From positions 1 to 54,510 of the IMG/VR virus record IMGVR_UViG_3300036770_001615: DNA of 54,510 nt. One strand, written 5' to 3'. Source of the stretch: a virus. Taxonomy: Duplodnaviria > Caudoviricetes. Positions 4,405 through 10,614 of the stretch are shown in pieces. Every line of letters starts with the position of its first letter. Positions within the stretch are counted from its first letter, which is position 1. Below the pieces are notes generated by a model. It was given only the letters and a program-made list of their open reading frames with translations. It searched no databases and was not told the DNA's origin. The position numbers and the translations under genes were made by a program.

Positions 4405-4452
4405 AATCAAGTACTTACGAGGCTTGACAAATAATCAGAGTTGTAGTAGAAT
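4405..4452 (+). promoter_or_regulatory. IHF site plus sigma70 promoter
   Basis: AATCAAGTACTTA (WATCAANNNNTTR), then TTGACA-17-TAGAAT. Confidence 0.8.
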
Positions 4453-4461
4453 GCTTATATT

Positions 4462-4491
4462 CGCTGAGAAATCAGCAACGTTCTTTAAAAA
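4462..4491 (+). promoter_or_regulatory. rrn-type boxB-boxA antitermination signal, copy 1
   Basis: GCTGA-GAAA-TCAGC hairpin plus GTTCTTTAAAAA; identical 30 bp at 7654. Confidence 0.75.
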
Positions 4492-7061: not shown

Positions 7062-7601
7062 ATGAAACTTAACGACTACATTTTTGTTAGCAAACTTTTT
7101 GATTCACAAGAATGCGATGAAATAATAAACAAAACCAATCAGTATAAATGGCGCCAACATAAATGGAATGCCTCTAATACAAAGGTTAAGTCAGTAGAGG
7201 AAATCGATAACATTCTAGTATGTAATATTGATCCTTTACTTGAAAGTAAAATATCTCCTAAGTTATTGAACGTATTTGGAAAATATAGTATCCTATTTGG
7301 ACCACATAGTGTTCCAATTCAGTTGACTAATCAATGGGATAATATTAGAATAAACAAATATACAGAAGGTGTCGGTATGAGAAATCATATTGATCACGGT
7401 ATAGATAGGGAACATCCTGTACTTACAATCATTGCGTTATTGAATGACGAATTCACAGGTGGTAATACTTTTATCTTAAATGAGGAAGTATTGCTTAAGA
7501 AAGGTGACTGTGTTATCTTTCCTAGTAATTTTATGTATCCACATGAAATTAAACCTGTAGTGAATGGTACAAGATATTCACTAACTACTTGGGCTTATTA
7601 A
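7062..7601 (+). CDS. 2OG-Fe(II) oxygenase (prolyl-4-hydroxylase-like)
   Basis: HIDH...FTGG...FPSNFMYPHEIKPV..GTRYS. Confidence 0.9.
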   Translation: MKLNDYIFVSKLFDSQECDEIINKTNQYKWRQHKWNASNTKVKSVEEIDNILVCNIDPLLESKISPKLLNVFGKYSILFGPHSVPIQLTNQWDNIRINKYTEGVGMRNHIDHGIDREHPVLTIIALLNDEFTGGNTFILNEEVLLKKGDCVIFPSNFMYPHEIKPVVNGTRYSLTTWAY

Positions 7602-7612
7602 CCCAAAACTGT

Positions 7613-7641
7613 TTGACAAAAAATCAAAAGTAATATACAAT
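7613..7641 (+). promoter_or_regulatory. sigma70 promoter of the ncRNA operon
   Basis: TTGACA-17-TACAAT. Confidence 0.85.
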
Positions 7642-7653
7642 ACGTTGTATTGA

Positions 7654-7683
7654 CGCTGAGAAATCAGCAACGTTCTTTAAAAA
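7654..7683 (+). promoter_or_regulatory. rrn-type boxB-boxA signal, copy 2
   Basis: Identical to 4462-4491. Confidence 0.75.
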
Positions 7684-7698
7684 TTATTAGTATAAAGG

Positions 7699-7930
7699 GA
7701 AGTCTTTATACACATGACAATTAAATGTCAGCAAATGAAAGTCACTATTGTTAGTAGCCGGCCAGCCAAAGCAATAGTAAGCAGTGGGGGGCGCAAAACC
7801 CTAGCAAAACCTAGACACACTGGATGAGTAACTGAAGTGACGTACCGAGTCCTGCCCGGGTTTAATTACACAGGTGAATGGTGCTAATAACGATGGTAGC
7901 ACATTTTAGTTGTCAGTTGTATAAAGATTT
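7699..7930 (+). ncRNA. ~230-nt self-closed structured RNA or domain
   Basis: GAAGTCTTTATAC..TGACAATTAAA pairs with TTTAGTTGTCA..GTATAAAGATTTC; internal hairpins. Confidence 0.65.
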
Positions 7931-7934
7931 CAAA

Positions 7935-8805
7935 GATTGGGGGCATAGCCTCGTTAGAATAAGTGTAGCGATACACCCAAAGCAGAATCCGCCTACAGGA
8001 CTGCACCAGCAATGGTTCATCTATGCAAGCCTGCTCACACCCGTGAGGGTGCGATCACTGATAAGACCGGTGGTTGTAACAATGAAGCAAGTGTGTTGGA
8101 AAGAATGTCTGTTTAAGTCCCCGCAAGGGTAAGACAGGCAGACAGAGAGTAACAGGTGGTGCTGACCTCAACACAAAACCAACTTGTCAATTGGTATGAG
8201 AAAGGGTAGTATATATTGTCCGAAGGGTCGCTCCTAAGGGCGTGTATGCAGTATGAGTGGTTAATGGGTATTGATTACGGGTCAATATACATAAATCGCA
8301 AAATACGTCTGAGTAGTCCGCGAGACAAAAGGAACGTGGTGTGTTGTATTATGTAATCCAAAAGATTATGTAGCAACTGAGGCAGCACATCATAGTAGGT
8401 TCAGTTATAGCACAACGGTAGTGCAACTCCATTTATCCAGGAGTCGGCTGAAGGTTCAAATCCTTCTAACGATTATAAAAACGCAAAGTCTGCCTCGGTT
8501 GTATGTGAAAAGCATCTAACTCTCAGGCCGCAAGGTAACTGAGACTGACGTAACTCGCAAGGTGAAATCAGTTTATGCTAGAAGATTCGTAACGGTTTAG
8601 CGACTGTGAATGGCTCGCAAGGTCAACGGGTAATAAAGCGTAGAGTAGCATATAACGTCAAGTCTACTGCATGACTTTAAACTGCGATGCTGGTAATAGA
8701 CGTAGATACCGCAAGGGTTTACGTGGATATCGGAAGAAAGTATTCTCGCAAGGAATACAATAATGTCCGAGGTATTACTGGCTAACGTGTAATCTCAGCG
8801 TTAGC
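7935..8805 (+). ncRNA. Large ornate RNA, GOLLD-like (boundaries approximate)
   Basis: ~870 nt with no credible ORF; dense GNRA-capped hairpins (CGCAAGG x6); terminal GCTAACG-TGTAATCTCAG-CGTTAGC hairpin; phage tRNA-array context. Confidence 0.75.
8401..8473 (+). ncRNA. tRNA-like domain embedded in the GOLLD-like RNA
   Basis: D arm GCAC-AACGGTA-GTGC, ACTCC-(9-nt loop)-GGAGT, T arm GAAGG-TTCAAAT-CCTTC; no CCA. Confidence 0.75.
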
Positions 8806-8806
8806 A

Positions 8807-8872
8807 TTATTCTAAAACACATTCGCAACCACAAGGTAGTGAAATGTACGAGGGGAGTGTGTTTTAGAATAA
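8807..8872 (+). ncRNA. Stem-closed RNA cassette D
   Basis: TTATTCTAAAACACATTC / GAGTGTGTTTTAGAATAA; shares AAAACACATTC/GAGTGTGTTT with cassette A. Confidence 0.6.
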
Positions 8873-8880
8873 AAAGTTTT

Positions 8881-9140
8881 GGTAGTAGCCGTAAGGTGAA
8901 CTACCCGGAGACAAGAAAGAGATTAGGACTGACGAAACTTATTATTGGACTTTTTATCCAATAATGATCAATACGGCAATACGTCTTGAAAAACGTATCG
9001 TGCTTATGTGATCTAGTCTAAACGGTTTTATCTAACCTTCTTGTACTTTGCTGACTAGGAATATGTAGGCCTCTGTGCTTTGTTAAATGTCACTTGCAGG
9101 TTGCATATTGTAATGTTGGTTACTTACTTTTTTGGCTCCG
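8881..9140 (+). ncRNA. Structured RNA with 7-nt periodic repeats
   Basis: Several hairpins; CGGAG/CTCCG closing pair; TG at 9074, 9081, 9088, 9095, 9102, 9109. Confidence 0.6.
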
Positions 9141-9170
9141 TCACTATTCATTAACATAAAAGGTATTAAA

Positions 9171-9734
9171 ATGGAAATCACACTTCGTAAAGCAAATGCA
9201 CTTCAAAACAACATCAACGATATGTTGAAGTCAATTCAGGTTGCTGATTCAGTTAACCTTAACGAGTTCCAAGATGCAGAAGCCGTAATTGGAACTAAAG
9301 CAGTAGAGGCTACAAAACAATTTCAGCGCCAAGTGGCACTCACCAAAGCATTGTACGATATTCGTACAGAAGTGGCTAATGCTAACCACTTCTCACGTAT
9401 CACAACCATGTTGACTCAAGTTGCAGAACTTGAAAAGTTGATTGGTTTCAATCAAAAAATGGCAGAGCGTAAAGTTCGCCTAGAGGCTGGGGTCATTCGT
9501 GGCAAGTTGGACAAAATTCGCACTGAGGGTCGTTCATTGATCTATGATCGTTACAATGAAATAGAAACTGGACTAACCACTGAAGCAGAGGTTCAGTCAT
9601 ACAAGGATACTGTGGCAAAACTTAAGCGTGAGAAGCAGGCTTTGCAGGATCAAATCTTAGAAGCCAACGTTGGCACTAAGGTAAATCTTAGCGAAACTAC
9701 TGCAAATGTATTGCGTACTGAAGGTTTGCTATAA
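9171..9734 (+). CDS. Alpha-helical coiled-coil protein (DIP1984/DUF6847-like architecture)
   Basis: MEITLRKANALQ...IRTEVANAN...LQDQILEANVGTKV. AAGG SD. Family assignment is inference. Confidence 0.65.
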   Translation: MEITLRKANALQNNINDMLKSIQVADSVNLNEFQDAEAVIGTKAVEATKQFQRQVALTKALYDIRTEVANANHFSRITTMLTQVAELEKLIGFNQKMAERKVRLEAGVIRGKLDKIRTEGRSLIYDRYNEIETGLTTEAEVQSYKDTVAKLKREKQALQDQILEANVGTKVNLSETTANVLRTEGLL

Positions 9735-9741
9735 ATAATAT

Positions 9742-9816
9742 CGTGGGGTGGAGAAGAGGAAACTCACCAGTCTCATAAGCTGGAGATCGCAGGTTCGAGT
9801 CCTGCCCCCGCAACCA
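9742..9816 (+). tRNA. tRNA-fMet-like (CAT)
   Basis: C1xA72 mismatch, CTCATAA loop, CCA; lacks the 3 G-C anticodon-stem pairs. Confidence 0.85.
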
Positions 9817-9817
9817 G

Positions 9818-9892
9818 TCCCACGTAGTTCAAAGGATAGAATAAGACACTCCTAAGGTCAAGATATCAGTTCGATTCTGGTCGTGGGAGCCA
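9818..9892 (+). tRNA. tRNA-Arg(CCT), weak anticodon stem
   Basis: TCCCACG/CGTGGGA, CTCCTAA loop, A20; only 3 WC pairs in the anticodon stem. Confidence 0.75.
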
Positions 9893-9999: not shown

Positions 10000-10614
10000 A
10001 TGGTAAATTATTTTCATAAAATCAATAAGTTTTATATTGATCATAAAAAATTATATGATGAATGGTACAGTGTGGCTACTAAACATGATATGTTTGAGAG
10101 GACACACCACTTTGTATCCCGCAGAACGTTAGACTATTCACCTTCTATTCCCGTATATTATAAATTATTGATTAATTACCCTACATCAATGGATCAAAAC
10201 ATTGATCCAGTATGGTTAGATAGATCGGAAGATAACGACACTGGTAATGATACTACTTTTTCAATCGACAACATCAATATAAATTTTAAAAATTCATATA
10301 CTGAAACTGTAGTAAAACATATAGATAAGTTTATAACGTCGAAATACAAATCATATAAAACAACAGTAGTAAAATATGCGGTGTTAAGACCTAATTCACT
10401 TATTAATACTCATGTAGATAAAAGGTCTATACCTAGATTTTTCTTAACCGTAAACGCCCCTCAGGGATGTTTTATGGAAGTATGTGGTGATAGGCATTCA
10501 TTAAGTGATACGGGAGCATTATTTAAAATGATATGTAATGCACCGCATAGTCCTATTAACGAAAGTGATCAATTTCGTGTTATGATAATTTTTGATGTTG
10601 CTCCCGCAACATAA
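10000..10614 (+). CDS. Asp/Asn beta-hydroxylase-like oxygenase
   Basis: LRPNSLINTHVD...PHSPINESDQFRVMIIFD. Confidence 0.7.
   Translation: MVNYFHKINKFYIDHKKLYDEWYSVATKHDMFERTHHFVSRRTLDYSPSIPVYYKLLINYPTSMDQNIDPVWLDRSEDNDTGNDTTFSIDNININFKNSYTETVVKHIDKFITSKYKSYKTTVVKYAVLRPNSLINTHVDKRSIPRFFLTVNAPQGCFMEVCGDRHSLSDTGALFKMICNAPHSPINESDQFRVMIIFDVAPAT

What the first reader, a model, noticed from the sequence alone, without database searches (positions are those of the whole stretch)
7613..9734. An rRNA-style operon of ncRNAs ending in a single protein gene: candidate new RNP system
Seen, in order: promoter, boxB-boxA, 230-nt closed RNA, ~870-nt GOLLD-like RNA, stem cassette D, heptad-repeat RNA, coiled-coil protein, tRNA-fMet. 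About 1.5 kb has no credible ORF. Inference: these are co-transcribed parts of one ribonucleoprotein machine, such as an RNA cage with cargo and a coat protein.
Basis: inference. Interest (0 to 1): 0.8.

Follow-up and report, generated by a model that had tools for sequence, protein, structure and literature searches.

The report
GOLLD operon plus new RNA–protein pair
In a giant phage's cluster of RNA genes, a known cage-forming GOLLD RNA sits beside two undescribed structured RNAs, and one of these always travels with a small unknown protein, so the whole stretch is not one machine but it does hold a new candidate RNA–protein partnership.

Summary
Every listed part is real. Window 7613-9816 lies in a jumbo-phage tRNA array. 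It holds, in order:
- a sigma-70 promoter
- an rrn-like boxB-boxA leader
- a ~215-nt structured RNA with no Rfam family
- a complete ~870-nt GOLLD RNA (Rfam 213.6 bits against a cut-off of 150) with a tRNA-like insert
- a 3' hairpin
- a ~237-nt structured RNA with six UG spaced 7 nt apart, also with no Rfam family
- a 187-aa helical protein
- an initiator-type tRNA-Met

The claim that all parts form one RNP machine fails. GOLLD occurs without the protein in two complete or 99% complete genomes. The protein occurs without GOLLD in a 92% complete genome. The ~215-nt RNA sits at varying places in other arrays.

One sub-pair does hold. The 237-nt RNA lies next to the protein gene, on the same strand and on either side of it, for 56 of 59 distinct proteins. 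In whole-genome scans it was present in 2 of 2 genomes with the protein and absent from 3 of 3 without it. Its fold has strong covariation: 97% of cells pair, against 32-44% in slid controls. The initiator-type tRNA-Met usually accompanies the pair.

The boxA leader recurs upstream of GOLLD in related phages, which I found in no paper. Function is unknown, and actual RNA-protein binding is inferred only.

The parts
7613..7641 (+). sigma-70-type promoter (TTGACA-17-TACAAT)
   Evidence: 11 of 12 consensus positions. It sits directly after the stop of the 2OG-Fe(II) oxygenase ORF 7062-7601. L003 has a promoter at the same place.
7655..7683 (+). rrn/nut-like leader: boxB-like hairpin (7655-7668) followed by a boxA-like element (CGTTCTTTA + AAAA, 7670-7683)
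   Evidence: The same block occurs at 4463-4488 and in L003. The boxA 12-mer is invariant behind variable hairpins at 13 sites in 10 of 30 records. The rrn boxA UGCUCUUUA and the nutL boxA-spacer are printed in PMC2724277.
7690..7711 (+). small hairpin just after boxA (GTATAAAG..CTTTATAC); overlaps the 5' arm of the next RNA's closing helix
   Evidence: Read directly. Similar hairpins follow boxA in L098/L107 and L102. Function not tested.
7699..7931 (+). ~215-230-nt structured RNA of an undescribed family ('sRNA-215'; core about 7712-7925)
   Evidence: Closing inverted repeat; fold z = -4.0; no Rfam hit at E <= 1. Relatives in L088/L093, L090, L091 and L098-L104 are flanked directly by tRNAs. 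92.8% of cells pair against 26-42% when slid, and 12 pairs show compensatory changes.
7956..8823 (+). complete GOLLD RNA: variable 5' domain about 7963-8335, conserved 3' domain 8336-8801
   Evidence: Rfam RF02032 at 213.6 bits against a gathering score of 150, model positions 1-416 of 416. Homology block of 868 nt at 73-78% identity in 8 full-length phage loci. The 5' domain has 110 predicted pairs, 55 with compensatory changes, in 11 sequences.
8401..8474 (+). tRNA-like insert in the GOLLD linker, called tRNA-Ile(tat)
   Evidence: ARAGORN. The Rfam tRNA match is 42.3 bits and covers model positions 4-67 only. Read directly, the anticodon loop has 9 nt and the first acceptor pairs are weak. 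Most relatives carry tRNA-Asn(gtt) at this place.
8807..8872 (+). hairpin directly 3' of GOLLD ('stem cassette')
   Evidence: 18-nt arms, 94% complementary. The 5' arm lies inside the GOLLD homology block. Similar hairpins flank GOLLD on both sides in L090, and the hairpin is shared with L087.
8879..8907 (+). small hairpin that precedes the next RNA
   Evidence: Read directly. An equivalent hairpin precedes the RNA in L003 and in L004, where the RNA lies downstream of the protein gene.
8906..9142 (+). ~237-nt structured RNA of an undescribed family ('heptad RNA'). Closing helix 8912-8933 with 9115-9134; six UG at an exact 7-nt period, G at 9075-9110.
   Evidence: Covariance model R1 scores 165.5 bits and finds a single copy in the window. 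31 pairs, 23 with compensatory changes. 97.1% of cells pair against 32-44% when slid, with 0 of 500 shuffles as high. No Rfam hit. A contig from an RNA library equals 8909-9134 with 0 differences.
9171..9734 (+). 187-aa helical protein of an unnamed viral family; gene partner of the heptad RNA
   Evidence: No Pfam, PHROG, NCBIfam or PADLOC family. 1606 cluster representatives at E <= 0.001. AlphaFold2 pLDDT 84.8. Best solved match is 3kdq, E 0.011. Homodimer model ipSAE 0.71 against a best control of 0.01.
9742..9816 (+). initiator-type tRNA-Met(CAT), 8 nt after the stop codon
   Evidence: The C1.A72 mismatch and A11:U24 were read directly. 30 of 31 distinct tRNA-Met found within 700 nt downstream of the protein in related loci have a 1:72 mismatch.
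9818..9892 (+). tRNA-Arg(cct), where the tRNA array continues
4424..4491 (+). second copy of the promoter + boxB + boxA module, upstream of tRNA-Leu(taa). Outside the finding, but it shows that the module is generic.
   Evidence: L003 has the same module upstream of its tRNA-Leu(taa).

Best explanation
The stretch is part of a jumbo-phage stable-RNA operon, that is, a tRNA array. It is built from separable modules and is not one machine.

Transcription. A host-type promoter is followed by an rrn-like boxB hairpin and a boxA. Inference: this leader recruits the host NusB/NusE-type antitermination complex. That would let RNA polymerase run through about 1.5 kb of untranslated, tightly folded RNA without Rho-dependent or structure-induced termination.

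The transcript carries four modules:
1. A ~215-nt structured RNA of an undescribed family.
2. A genuine, complete GOLLD RNA with a tRNA-like insert in its linker and a 3' hairpin. GOLLD is known to form a protein-free 14-mer nanocage.
3. A ~237-nt structured RNA of a second undescribed family, closed by a 22-bp helix and carrying six UG at 7-nt spacing.
4. A 187-aa helical protein, probably a dimer, followed at once by an initiator-type tRNA-Met.

Linkage. Only modules 3 and 4, usually with the initiator tRNA, are genetically coupled. They stay adjacent on one strand in either order across proteins down to about 38% identity. They are present or absent together in whole genomes.

Most likely reading (inferred, not shown): the RNA is cut out of the array transcript and kept stable by its closing helix. 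It then works together with the protein as a specific RNP or a tight regulatory pair, possibly in connection with initiator tRNA. GOLLD and the ~215-nt RNA are frequent but dispensable neighbours.
For: Identity of the parts.
- GOLLD: Rfam RF02032, 213.6 bits against 150, full model; 868-nt homology block; 5' domain with 55 of 110 pairs compensatory.
- Context: 29 tRNAs in the window. The record is a virus fragment, 14% complete by CheckV.
- Published: GOLLD forms a 14-mer cage with a variable 5' and a conserved 3' domain and sometimes holds tRNAs in its linker (PMC12286853, passages read).

Leader.
- The promoter + hairpin + boxA module occurs twice in the window and once in L003.
- The 12-mer G[CT]TCTTTAA[AC]AA stands at 13 sites in 10 of 30 records. 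It lies behind hairpins of differing sequence and, by eye, behind TTGAC-17-TAnAAT promoters in 12 of the 13.
- It lies within 700 nt upstream of GOLLD in 12 of 27 GOLLD-positive loci, and in 10 of the 17 that have at least 700 nt of sequence there.
- PMC2724277 prints rrn boxA as UGCUCUUUA and the nutL boxA-spacer as cgcucuuaaaaauuaa.

RNA-protein pair.
- nhmmer over all 191 held records (1.77 Mb) gave both in 89, RNA only in 1 (a locus cut off at the RNA), protein only in 7, neither in 94.
- Of the 7 protein-only records, 5 have weaker hits (L157, L161, L162 and L172 next to the gene; L169 a partial hit at its cut 5' end) and 2 lack upstream sequence.
- Per distinct protein, 56 of 59 have the RNA on the same strand. 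It is upstream in 41. It is downstream in 15: within 600 nt of the gene in 14, and 1523 nt away with GOLLD between in L138.
- Model R1 over whole records hit once, next to the gene, in both protein-positive genomes (G012 100% complete, G013 92%). It gave no hit in the three protein-negative ones (G005 99%, G011 61%, Phosso complete).
- Structure: 97.1% of cells pair against 32-44% when slid; 23 of 31 pairs are compensatory; covariation score 0.713 against 0.05-0.12.
- A 226-nt contig from a metatranscriptome library equals 8909-9134 exactly, within 3 nt of the ends of the closing helix.

Independence of GOLLD.
- GOLLD present, protein absent: Phosso and G005.
- Protein present, GOLLD absent: G013 and G003/G004.
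- GOLLD lies 354-6944 nt upstream of the protein gene in 24 loci (0-13 tRNAs called between; in the window itself 347 nt and none). It lies 488-558 nt downstream in 3.

Dimer. ipSAE 0.71 against a best control of 0.01. That mark was reached by 20 of 30 solved homo-pairs and by 1 of 23 single chains. The three runs agree in at least 95% of contacts, and partner pLDDT is at least 89.

Initiator tRNA. tRNA-Met(cat) is the next same-strand tRNA within 600 nt in 51 of 80 loci. 30 of 31 distinct ones have a 1:72 mismatch.
Against: - No direct evidence shows that the RNA and the protein touch. The protein is near-neutral (pI 7.87; family 5.6-9.0) and has no recognisable RNA-binding domain.
- In 41 of 59 cases the RNA lies just upstream of the start codon, which a plain 5' leader would also explain.
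- Contigs cannot prove RNA ends, and DNA can be present in RNA libraries.
- Many loci are related phages, so the counts are not independent events. Several of the 191 records are the same contig fetched twice.
- GOLLD lies within about 0.8 kb of the protein gene in 14 of the 27 GOLLD-positive loci, so some functional tie to GOLLD cannot be excluded.
- No boxC was identified. Nus-factor dependence is inferred from sequence likeness alone. In the window itself the 12-mer is not above chance on its own: 3 matches against 1.24 +/- 1.19 expected.
- The host is unknown.
Confidence: 0.7

Rival explanations
1. Promoter, leader, the 215-nt RNA, GOLLD, hairpin, heptad RNA, protein and tRNA-fMet are parts of one RNP machine, such as a GOLLD cage with RNA cargo and a coat or cap protein.
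For: - All parts lie on one strand behind one promoter, with no terminator-like site between.
- GOLLD, where present in the protein loci, is always on the protein's strand: 27 of 27.
- GOLLD is within about 0.8 kb of the protein gene in 14 of those 27.
- The published cage is empty and its authors suggest cargo (PMC12286853).
Against: - GOLLD without the protein or the heptad RNA: Phosso (complete) and G005 (99%).
- The protein and heptad RNA without GOLLD: G013 (92%).
- Only 11 of 27 loci with at least 7 kb on both sides hold GOLLD.
- In G014 and G015, GOLLD lies 8.7 and 10.5 kb away.
- The 215-nt RNA is found in only 10 of 80 protein loci, at varying places relative to GOLLD.
- A close relative, L003 (protein 73% identical), has oxygenase, promoter, heptad RNA and protein with no GOLLD and no 215-nt RNA.
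- GOLLD assembles without protein in vitro (PMC12286853).
Confidence: 0.07
2. The 237-nt RNA is a cis-acting element of the protein's mRNA: a regulatory leader, or a structure that protects the mRNA end after the flanking tRNAs are processed. It is not a separate RNA that works with the protein.
For: - It ends 15-70 nt before the ATG in most upstream cases.
- 41 of 59 distinct loci have it within 300 nt upstream.
- It is more conserved than the coding sequence between the window and L003: 82% against 74% nucleotide identity. This is typical of regulatory leaders.
Against: - In 15 of 59 distinct loci it lies downstream of the gene. In some, tRNA-Met or GOLLD stands between.
- A leader cannot act from there, though a 3' protective structure could.
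- Invariant single-stranded UG repeats and loop motifs suggest recognition by a partner.
Confidence: 0.2
3. The 237-nt RNA acts on its own as an RNA-only structure, like GOLLD, ROOL and short cage-forming RNAs. Its nearness to the protein gene reflects only shared regulation or inherited gene order.
For: - Phage tRNA arrays carry several protein-free structured RNAs (PMC12286853).
- Short RNAs such as manA can form cages (bioRxiv 10.64898/2026.07.01.735769, passages read).
- The protein has no RNA-binding signature.
Against: - Adjacency survives changes of order and the insertion of other genes, across proteins down to about 38% identity.
- The two are present or absent together in 5 of 5 whole records tested.
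- tRNAs, GOLLD and the 215-nt RNA around them reshuffle freely.
Confidence: 0.1

Closest known systems
GOLLD RNA (Rfam RF02032)
   Same: Window 7956-8823 is a member. It matches the full model above the gathering score. It has a variable ~380-nt 5' domain and a conserved 3' domain. It lies in a phage tRNA array and carries a tRNA-like insert in its linker (PMC12286853).
   Different: Nothing essential differs. Here it has its own promoter with an rrn-like boxB-boxA leader, a link I found in no paper. The search for GOLLD + boxA gave 4 papers, all plant papers by title and abstract. The insert is tRNA-Ile(UAU)-like with a 9-nt anticodon loop, whereas most relatives have tRNA-Asn.
rrn operon antitermination leader (boxB-boxA-boxC) and phage lambda nut sites
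   Same: The order is promoter, hairpin, boxA, as in rrn. The boxA CGUUCUUUA matches 7 of 9 positions of the rrn boxA UGCUCUUUA; in L003 CGCUCUUUA matches 8 of 9. The A-rich spacer resembles that of nutL (PMC2724277). It precedes long untranslated structured RNA.
   Different: It drives phage tRNA, GOLLD and small-RNA genes, not rRNA. No boxC was identified and no N-like protein was looked for. Binding of Nus factors is untested.
OLE RNA with its Oap proteins, and Y RNA with Ro/Rsr: structured non-coding RNAs encoded next to their protein partners
   Same: A conserved structured RNA gene is kept beside one particular protein gene across wide divergence. That pattern is how such RNPs were first suspected (my recollection of the field). 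The OLE-OapA link is mentioned in PMC12286853 and in the PMC3413148 abstract (listing).
   Different: Neither the RNA nor the protein resembles those families. There is no Rfam hit and no Pfam hit. No TROVE/Ro gene occurs in 5 of 5 phage records searched. Binding is not shown.
Stable RNAs of unknown function inside the phage T4 tRNA gene cluster
   Same: Small stable RNAs are co-encoded and co-processed with phage tRNAs, as the ~215-nt RNA here is flanked directly by tRNAs in other phages.
   Different: The families found here are metagenomic and much larger arrays are involved.
PDB 3kdq, a Corynebacterium diphtheriae protein of unknown function, and Pfam DUF6847
   Same: 3kdq is the best fold match of the protein model: Foldseek E 0.011, TM 0.44-0.55. 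The ESM Atlas puts it near a viral cluster in which 19% of members carry DUF6847.
   Different: There is no Pfam hit at E <= 0.1 for the window's protein, and DUF6847 is not among the 25 families most often hit by 56 family members. No PDB sequence hit. The function of these relatives is unknown as well.

Membership tests
GOLLD RNA (RF02032) | Covariance-model score at or above Rfam's gathering score over the conserved 3' domain | tested here: met
   213.6 bits against 150, model positions 1-416 of 416, E 4.3e-59
GOLLD RNA (RF02032) | Total length of about 800 nt or more, with a less conserved structured 5' domain ahead of the linker | tested here: met
   868-nt homology block at 7956-8823. 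The 5' domain has 110 predicted pairs, 55 with compensatory changes, in 11 sequences. Domain layout as described in PMC12286853.
GOLLD RNA (RF02032) | Phage or prophage context near tRNA genes; a tRNA is sometimes present in the linker | tested here: met
   29 tRNAs in the window and a tRNA-like insert at 8401-8474; virus record
GOLLD RNA (RF02032) | Assembly into a D7 14-mer nanocage | not testable with these tools
   Needs cryo-EM or mass photometry of this sequence
rrn-type antitermination leader | boxA sequence close to UGCUCUUUA | tested here: met
   CGUUCUUUA matches 7 of 9; in L003 8 of 9. Reference sequence from PMC2724277. The 12-mer is invariant at 13 sites in 10 of 30 records.
rrn-type antitermination leader | boxB hairpin upstream of boxA and downstream of a promoter | tested here: met
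   Hairpin 7655-7668 lies 14 nt after the -10 hexamer. The hairpins differ in sequence between loci but keep their place.
rrn-type antitermination leader | boxC element; NusB/NusE binding; resistance to Rho | not tested
   No boxC consensus was at hand. Binding and termination assays are needed.
Bacterial initiator tRNA (tRNA-fMet) | Mismatch at 1:72 (criterion recalled) | tested here: met
   C1.A72 read directly at 9742/9812. 30 of 31 distinct neighbouring tRNA-Met in relatives have a 1:72 mismatch.
Bacterial initiator tRNA (tRNA-fMet) | Three consecutive G-C pairs at the bottom of the anticodon stem (criterion recalled) | tested here: not met
   The anticodon stem is CCAGU/GCUGG, so the tRNA is initiator-like at the acceptor end only
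DUF6847 / 3kdq-like proteins | Significant match to the Pfam model, or a clear fold match | tested here: inconclusive
   No Pfam hit. Foldseek E 0.011, TM 0.44-0.55. The Atlas neighbour cluster carries DUF6847 on 19% of members.
Type III toxin-antitoxin (RNA repeats + toxin) | Tandem direct repeats of about 34-45 nt upstream of the protein gene (recalled) | tested here: not met
   Tandem Repeats Finder gives 0 rows in 7600-9200. The only periodicity is 7 nt.
Y RNA / Ro RNP | A Ro (TROVE) protein encoded with the RNA | tested here: not met
   PF05731 was found in 0 of 5 phage records, two of them at least 99% complete. The control genomes gave hits.

The most novel reading that the evidence does not exclude
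The ~237-nt heptad RNA and the dimeric 187-aa protein form a new kind of phage RNP that works on or with the phage's own initiator tRNA. It might capture, shield or deliver the tRNA, or re-programme translation initiation during infection. Where a GOLLD gene lies beside the pair, the GOLLD cage would be its optional container or scaffold. That would give GOLLD its first protein and RNA partners.
Probability: 0.12. Interest if true: 0.85.

Novelty: new variant of a known kind. Interest (0 to 1): 0.6.

Why it matters
GOLLD is one of the largest bacterial and phage non-coding RNAs. Its cage structure is solved, but its function, its partners and the way it is transcribed are unknown. This locus and its relatives contribute three things.

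1. A concrete and testable transcription signal. An rrn-like boxB-boxA leader directly upstream of GOLLD, and of phage tRNA blocks, suggests that these phages borrow the host's rRNA antitermination system to make long structured RNAs.

2. Two structured RNA families with covariation support that match nothing in Rfam 15.

3. A near-obligate gene pair. The pair joins one of these RNAs to a widespread protein family of unknown function, found almost only in viruses (1606 cluster representatives). It usually has an initiator-type tRNA beside it and often lies next to GOLLD.

The pair can be tested at the bench directly, and it may be a way into what the RNA content of jumbo-phage tRNA arrays does. 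The result also shows that GOLLD does not need this protein, which narrows the search for its partners.

Tried and rejected
Known RNA classes for the two new RNAs. An Rfam scan of 7550-9250 at E <= 1 gave only GOLLD and tRNA. ARAGORN found no tmRNA. By eye I considered RNase P RNA (a P4-like GAAAGUC), the tmRNA T-arm, 6S RNA and SRP RNA for the 215-nt RNA. None fitted the covarying helices, so I dropped them. The Y-RNA idea was dropped because no TROVE gene was found.

Heptad repeat. Tandem Repeats Finder at minimum score 30 found nothing. The period-7 UG is seen only by direct reading and by its conservation.

Protein annotation. All of these were negative or only noise:
- Pfam, PHROG, NCBIfam and PADLOC
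- PDB by sequence, both single sequence and profile
- tblastn against 50,697 phage records
The 3kdq / DUF6847 link is weak. The paper search for DIP1984, DUF6847 and septicolysin listed nothing useful.

Synteny through the neighbouring oxygenase. It gave only 30-52% identical relatives, so I did not use it for synteny. Those 80 loci served only as background sequence.

blastn of 7600-9740 against phage isolates found only Phosso's GOLLD.

RNA libraries. All runs held small shares of the words and are contigs. No contig covers 7600-7969, and the cover of 9154-9800 is almost nil. Nothing is inferred from those gaps. The contigs cannot show co-transcription.

Genome-contig scan. It found only two short MAG contigs, labelled Glaciecola sp. 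and uncultured Alteromonadales. This is too weak to name a host.

Papers.
- boxA sequences were not found in PMC3177189 or PMC2800207. They were found in PMC2724277.
- PMC7549688, on Mycobacterium GOLLD, is not held.
- Supplements of papers were not consulted. The supplementary alignments and context tables of PMC12286853 and PMC5737381 may bear on whether the neighbours described here were already noticed.

Script error. My first script for the tRNA 1:72 pair mis-read ARAGORN's output. I discard its counts. One search replaces it.

Full report
SETTING. The window is a 54.5-kb fragment of a virus record. CheckV puts it at 14% complete, which implies a jumbo phage. It carries 29 tRNA genes, all on the + strand, in its first 11.4 kb. 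Small ORFs lie among them: a 2OG-Fe(II) oxygenase at 7062-7601 and an Asp/Asn-hydroxylase-like ORF at 10000-10614. The finding covers the largest stretch without tRNAs or ORFs in this array.

- A near-consensus promoter lies at 7613-7641.
- A hairpin at 7655-7668 is followed by GTTCTTTAAAAA at 7672-7683.
- A long inverted repeat, 7699-7725 with 7905-7931, closes a fold with z = -4.0.
- Rfam's GOLLD model matches 8336-8801 from end to end at 213.6 bits against a gathering score of 150. A tRNA-like element sits at 8401-8474 in the linker.
- An 18-bp hairpin lies at 8807-8872.
- A 187-aa ORF lies at 9171-9734.
- tRNA-Met(CAT) starts 8 nt after the stop codon.
- Nothing else in 7550-9250 matches any Rfam family at E <= 1.
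- The longest ORF inside the RNA region has 84 aa and spans two separate RNA modules.
- The heptad repeat escaped Tandem Repeats Finder but is plain on reading. G stands at 9075 + 7k for k = 0-5, each preceded by T.

GOLLD IS GENUINE AND COMPLETE. A 19-mer from its 3' end recovered 12 viral loci. Ten of them pass Rfam's GOLLD threshold, and all lie in tRNA arrays. blastn shows that the block shared with them is window 7956-8823, which is 868 nt at 73-78% identity. The 5' part, 7963-8335, aligned with ten relatives, gives 110 predicted pairs, 55 of them with compensatory changes. This is the published layout: a variable 5' domain, a conserved 3' domain, a disordered linker that sometimes holds a tRNA, and a protein-free 14-mer cage (PMC12286853, passages read; review PMC12990946, passages). 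Contigs from freshwater and riverine metatranscriptome libraries (4 runs, 3 studies) cover 7976-8823 at 90% identity or more. GOLLDs of this type are therefore present in RNA libraries.

THE LEADER IS A GENERIC MODULE.
- The same 26-nt hairpin+boxA block, behind TTGACA-17-TAGAAT, stands at 4424-4491 upstream of tRNA-Leu(taa). It stands at the equivalent place in the close relative L003.
- Across 30 records, the 12-mer G[CT]TCTTTAA[AC]AA occurs at 13 sites in 10 records. One pair of those records is the same contig.
- It always lies behind a hairpin whose sequence differs from locus to locus. By eye it lies behind a TTGAC-17-TAnAAT promoter in 12 of the 13 sites.
- A variable stem followed by an invariant single-stranded box is what boxB-boxA predicts.
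- PMC2724277 prints the rrn boxA as UGCUCUUUA and the lambda nutL boxA-spacer as cgcucuuaaaaauuaa. The window has CGUUCUUUAAAAAUU and L003 has CGCUCUUUAAAAAUU.
- In the survey below, the motif lies within 700 nt upstream of GOLLD in 12 of 27 GOLLD-positive loci, and in 10 of the 17 with enough sequence.
- Nus-factor/boxA complexes are proposed to prevent Rho-dependent termination in rRNA operons (PMC4807359, abstract seen in the listing).
- I infer that the phage uses the same device to carry polymerase through long untranslated RNA. This step is inferred, not shown.
- No paper in the library links GOLLD RNA with boxA. One search gave 4 papers holding both words, all plant papers by their titles and abstracts.

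THE ~215-NT RNA IS A SEPARATE, MOVABLE GENE. A 19-mer from it recovered seven further viral loci plus L090. In these it is flanked directly by tRNAs. Its place relative to GOLLD varies:
- immediately upstream, with a 24-nt gap, in the window
- upstream with 2 tRNAs between in L099 and L104
- upstream with 9-11 tRNAs between in L088/L093 and L091
- downstream with 3 tRNAs between in L090
In G005 a promoter-boxA module separates it from GOLLD. Its consensus fold is supported: 92.8% of cells pair against 26-42% when slid, and 12 pairs have compensatory changes in 8 sequences. It has no Rfam family.

THE PROTEIN. It has no Pfam, PHROG, NCBIfam or PADLOC family. Its family is nevertheless large and uniform in length, about 188 aa. 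There are 521 clusters at 90% identity and 1606 representatives at 50% identity with E <= 0.001. The ESM Atlas gives its nearest clusters as 91-100% viral. None was found in 50,697 phage isolate records. The AlphaFold2 model is mainly helical (pLDDT 84.8). The best solved match is 3kdq, a protein of unknown function (E 0.011). A homodimer model scores ipSAE 0.71 against a best control of 0.01. That mark was reached by 20 of 30 solved homo-pairs and by 1 of 23 single chains. The runs agree in at least 95% of contacts, and pLDDT is at least 89. The model supports a dimer but does not show one.

TESTING 'ONE MACHINE'.
- Close relatives of the protein, L003 (73% identical) and L004/L005 (47%), have no GOLLD in their loci or in their whole records.
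- In L003 the order is oxygenase, promoter, about 440 nt, protein. Those 440 nt correspond to window 8875-9170. So about 1.2 kb (leader, 215-nt RNA, GOLLD) is an insertion or deletion between the two phages.
- A profile search fetched the 80 best protein loci out of 287 stretches in IMG/VR that encode a relative. They hold 59 distinct proteins.
- An nhmmer GOLLD profile finds GOLLD in 27 of the 80, always on the protein's strand. It is upstream in 24 (354-6944 nt, 0-13 tRNAs between) and downstream in 3 (488-558 nt).
- Among the 27 loci with at least 7 kb on both sides, 11 hold GOLLD, which is 9 of 22 distinct proteins.
- Whole-record scans give three of the four combinations in genomes at least 92% complete: G012 (100%) has both; G005 (99%) and Phosso (complete isolate) have GOLLD but no protein; G013 (92%) has the protein but no GOLLD.

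WHAT DOES TRAVEL TOGETHER.
- The region upstream of the protein gene is better conserved than the gene itself: 82% against 74% nucleotide identity with L003.
- Iterated nhmmer found it in 36 of 52 distinct upstream regions.
- Over all 191 records then held (1.77 Mb), the element and the protein occur together in 89. The element occurs alone in 1, a locus cut off at that point. The protein occurs alone in 7. Neither occurs in 94.
- Of the 7 protein-only records, 5 show weaker hits: L157, L161, L162 and L172 next to the gene, and L169 a partial hit at its cut 5' end. The other 2 begin at the protein, so the upstream side is missing.
- Per distinct protein, 56 of 59 have the element on the same strand. 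It is upstream within 300 nt in 41 and downstream in 15. tRNA-Met stands between in one group, and GOLLD stands between in L138.
- An element that keeps its partner while changing sides is not simply a leader.
- Its fold is very well supported. There are 31 pairs, 23 with compensatory changes. 97.1% of cells pair against 32-44% in slid controls. The covariation score is 0.713 against 0.05-0.12, and 0 of 500 shuffles reach it.
- A covariance model (R1) finds one copy in the window, at 8906-9142.
- In whole records R1 finds exactly one copy beside the protein gene in G012 and in G013. It finds none in G005, G011 or Phosso, which lack the protein.
- The closing helix pairs 8912-8933 with 9115-9134. 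A 226-nt contig from one metatranscriptome library equals 8909-9134 without a difference. This is suggestive of a discrete stable RNA, but contigs do not prove ends.
- Five of the six 7-nt-spaced UG are invariant in 26 sequences.

THE tRNA. The tRNA-Met after the gene has a C1.A72 mismatch and A11:U24 (read directly; criteria recalled). It lacks the three G-C pairs in the anticodon stem. In 51 of 80 loci the next same-strand tRNA within 600 nt is tRNA-Met(cat). Of 31 distinct such tRNAs, 30 have a 1:72 mismatch. The recurring unit is therefore RNA + protein + initiator-type tRNA, seen in the orders R-P-M, P-R-M and P-M-R.

MECHANISM AND ODDS.
- Shown: what the parts are, that they are modular, the covariation, and the linkage.
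- Inferred: the boxA leader gives antitermination. The RNAs are released by the processing that frees the tRNAs. The heptad RNA and the probably dimeric protein act together. I put an RNP at about 0.45, a purely cis-acting element at about 0.2, an RNA-only role at about 0.1, and give the remainder to something not considered here.
- A link to initiator tRNA or to GOLLD is possible but speculative.
- Against binding: the protein is near-neutral (pI 7.87) and has no known RNA-binding domain.

LIMITS.
- Many loci come from related phages, and some were fetched twice, so counts of loci overstate independent events.
- Most records are fragments.
- The host is unknown.
- No raw-read expression data were available.

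Noticed in passing
window 4424-4491: A second copy of the promoter + boxB hairpin + boxA module lies directly upstream of tRNA-Leu(taa). The same arrangement occurs in L003 at 375-447. The tRNA array therefore seems to be cut into several antiterminated transcription units.
   Followed up: partly
window 7699-7931; L090 5676-5900; L098 2264-2488: The ~215-nt RNA is an undescribed family with covariation support. In most members it contains a T-arm-like hairpin (GGGTTCGA..CCC). In the window and in L104 that hairpin is replaced by a different one. It co-occurs with GOLLD in most records where both could be checked, but not in G008 (70% complete).
   Followed up: partly
window 8401-8474: The tRNA embedded in the GOLLD linker is called tRNA-Ile(tat). 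It has a 9-nt anticodon loop and weak first acceptor pairs, and Rfam aligns only tRNA model positions 4-67. It may be a tRNA mimic and not a working tRNA. Most relatives carry tRNA-Asn(gtt) at this place.
   Followed up: no
L090 4357-4440 and 5330-5440; window 8807-8872: Hairpins with similar arms (..AAAACACA.. / ..TGTGTTT..) flank GOLLD on both sides in L090 and follow it in the window and in L087. They could be processing sites, or recombination joints that move the GOLLD module.
   Followed up: no
window 7690-7711; L098 2745-2765; L102 (- strand, about 230-255): A short hairpin of the form GTATA..TATAC followed by ACATG comes right after boxA in three loci. It might be a boxC-like or processing element.
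   Followed up: no
window 7062-7601 and 10000-10614: A 2OG-Fe(II) oxygenase and an Asp/Asn beta-hydroxylase-like ORF are interspersed among the tRNA genes. Enzymes of this superfamily inside a tRNA array may point to RNA or translation-factor modification.
   Followed up: no
window 4853, 6132, 9742: The array holds three tRNA genes with a CAT anticodon. Only the one beside the protein (9742) was checked for initiator features.
   Followed up: partly
L191, L192 (genome contigs): Across 185,579 species genomes, the pattern scan found the protein only on two short MAG contigs, labelled Glaciecola sp. and uncultured Alteromonadales. Both have the heptad RNA just downstream of the gene. They are probably phage contigs binned into MAGs, which gives a weak host hint for that branch.
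   Followed up: partly
L138 3141-5473; L132 8001-9915: In some phages the order is protein, GOLLD, heptad RNA, or protein, heptad RNA, GOLLD. GOLLD can therefore sit inside or just after the RNA-protein pair.
   Followed up: no
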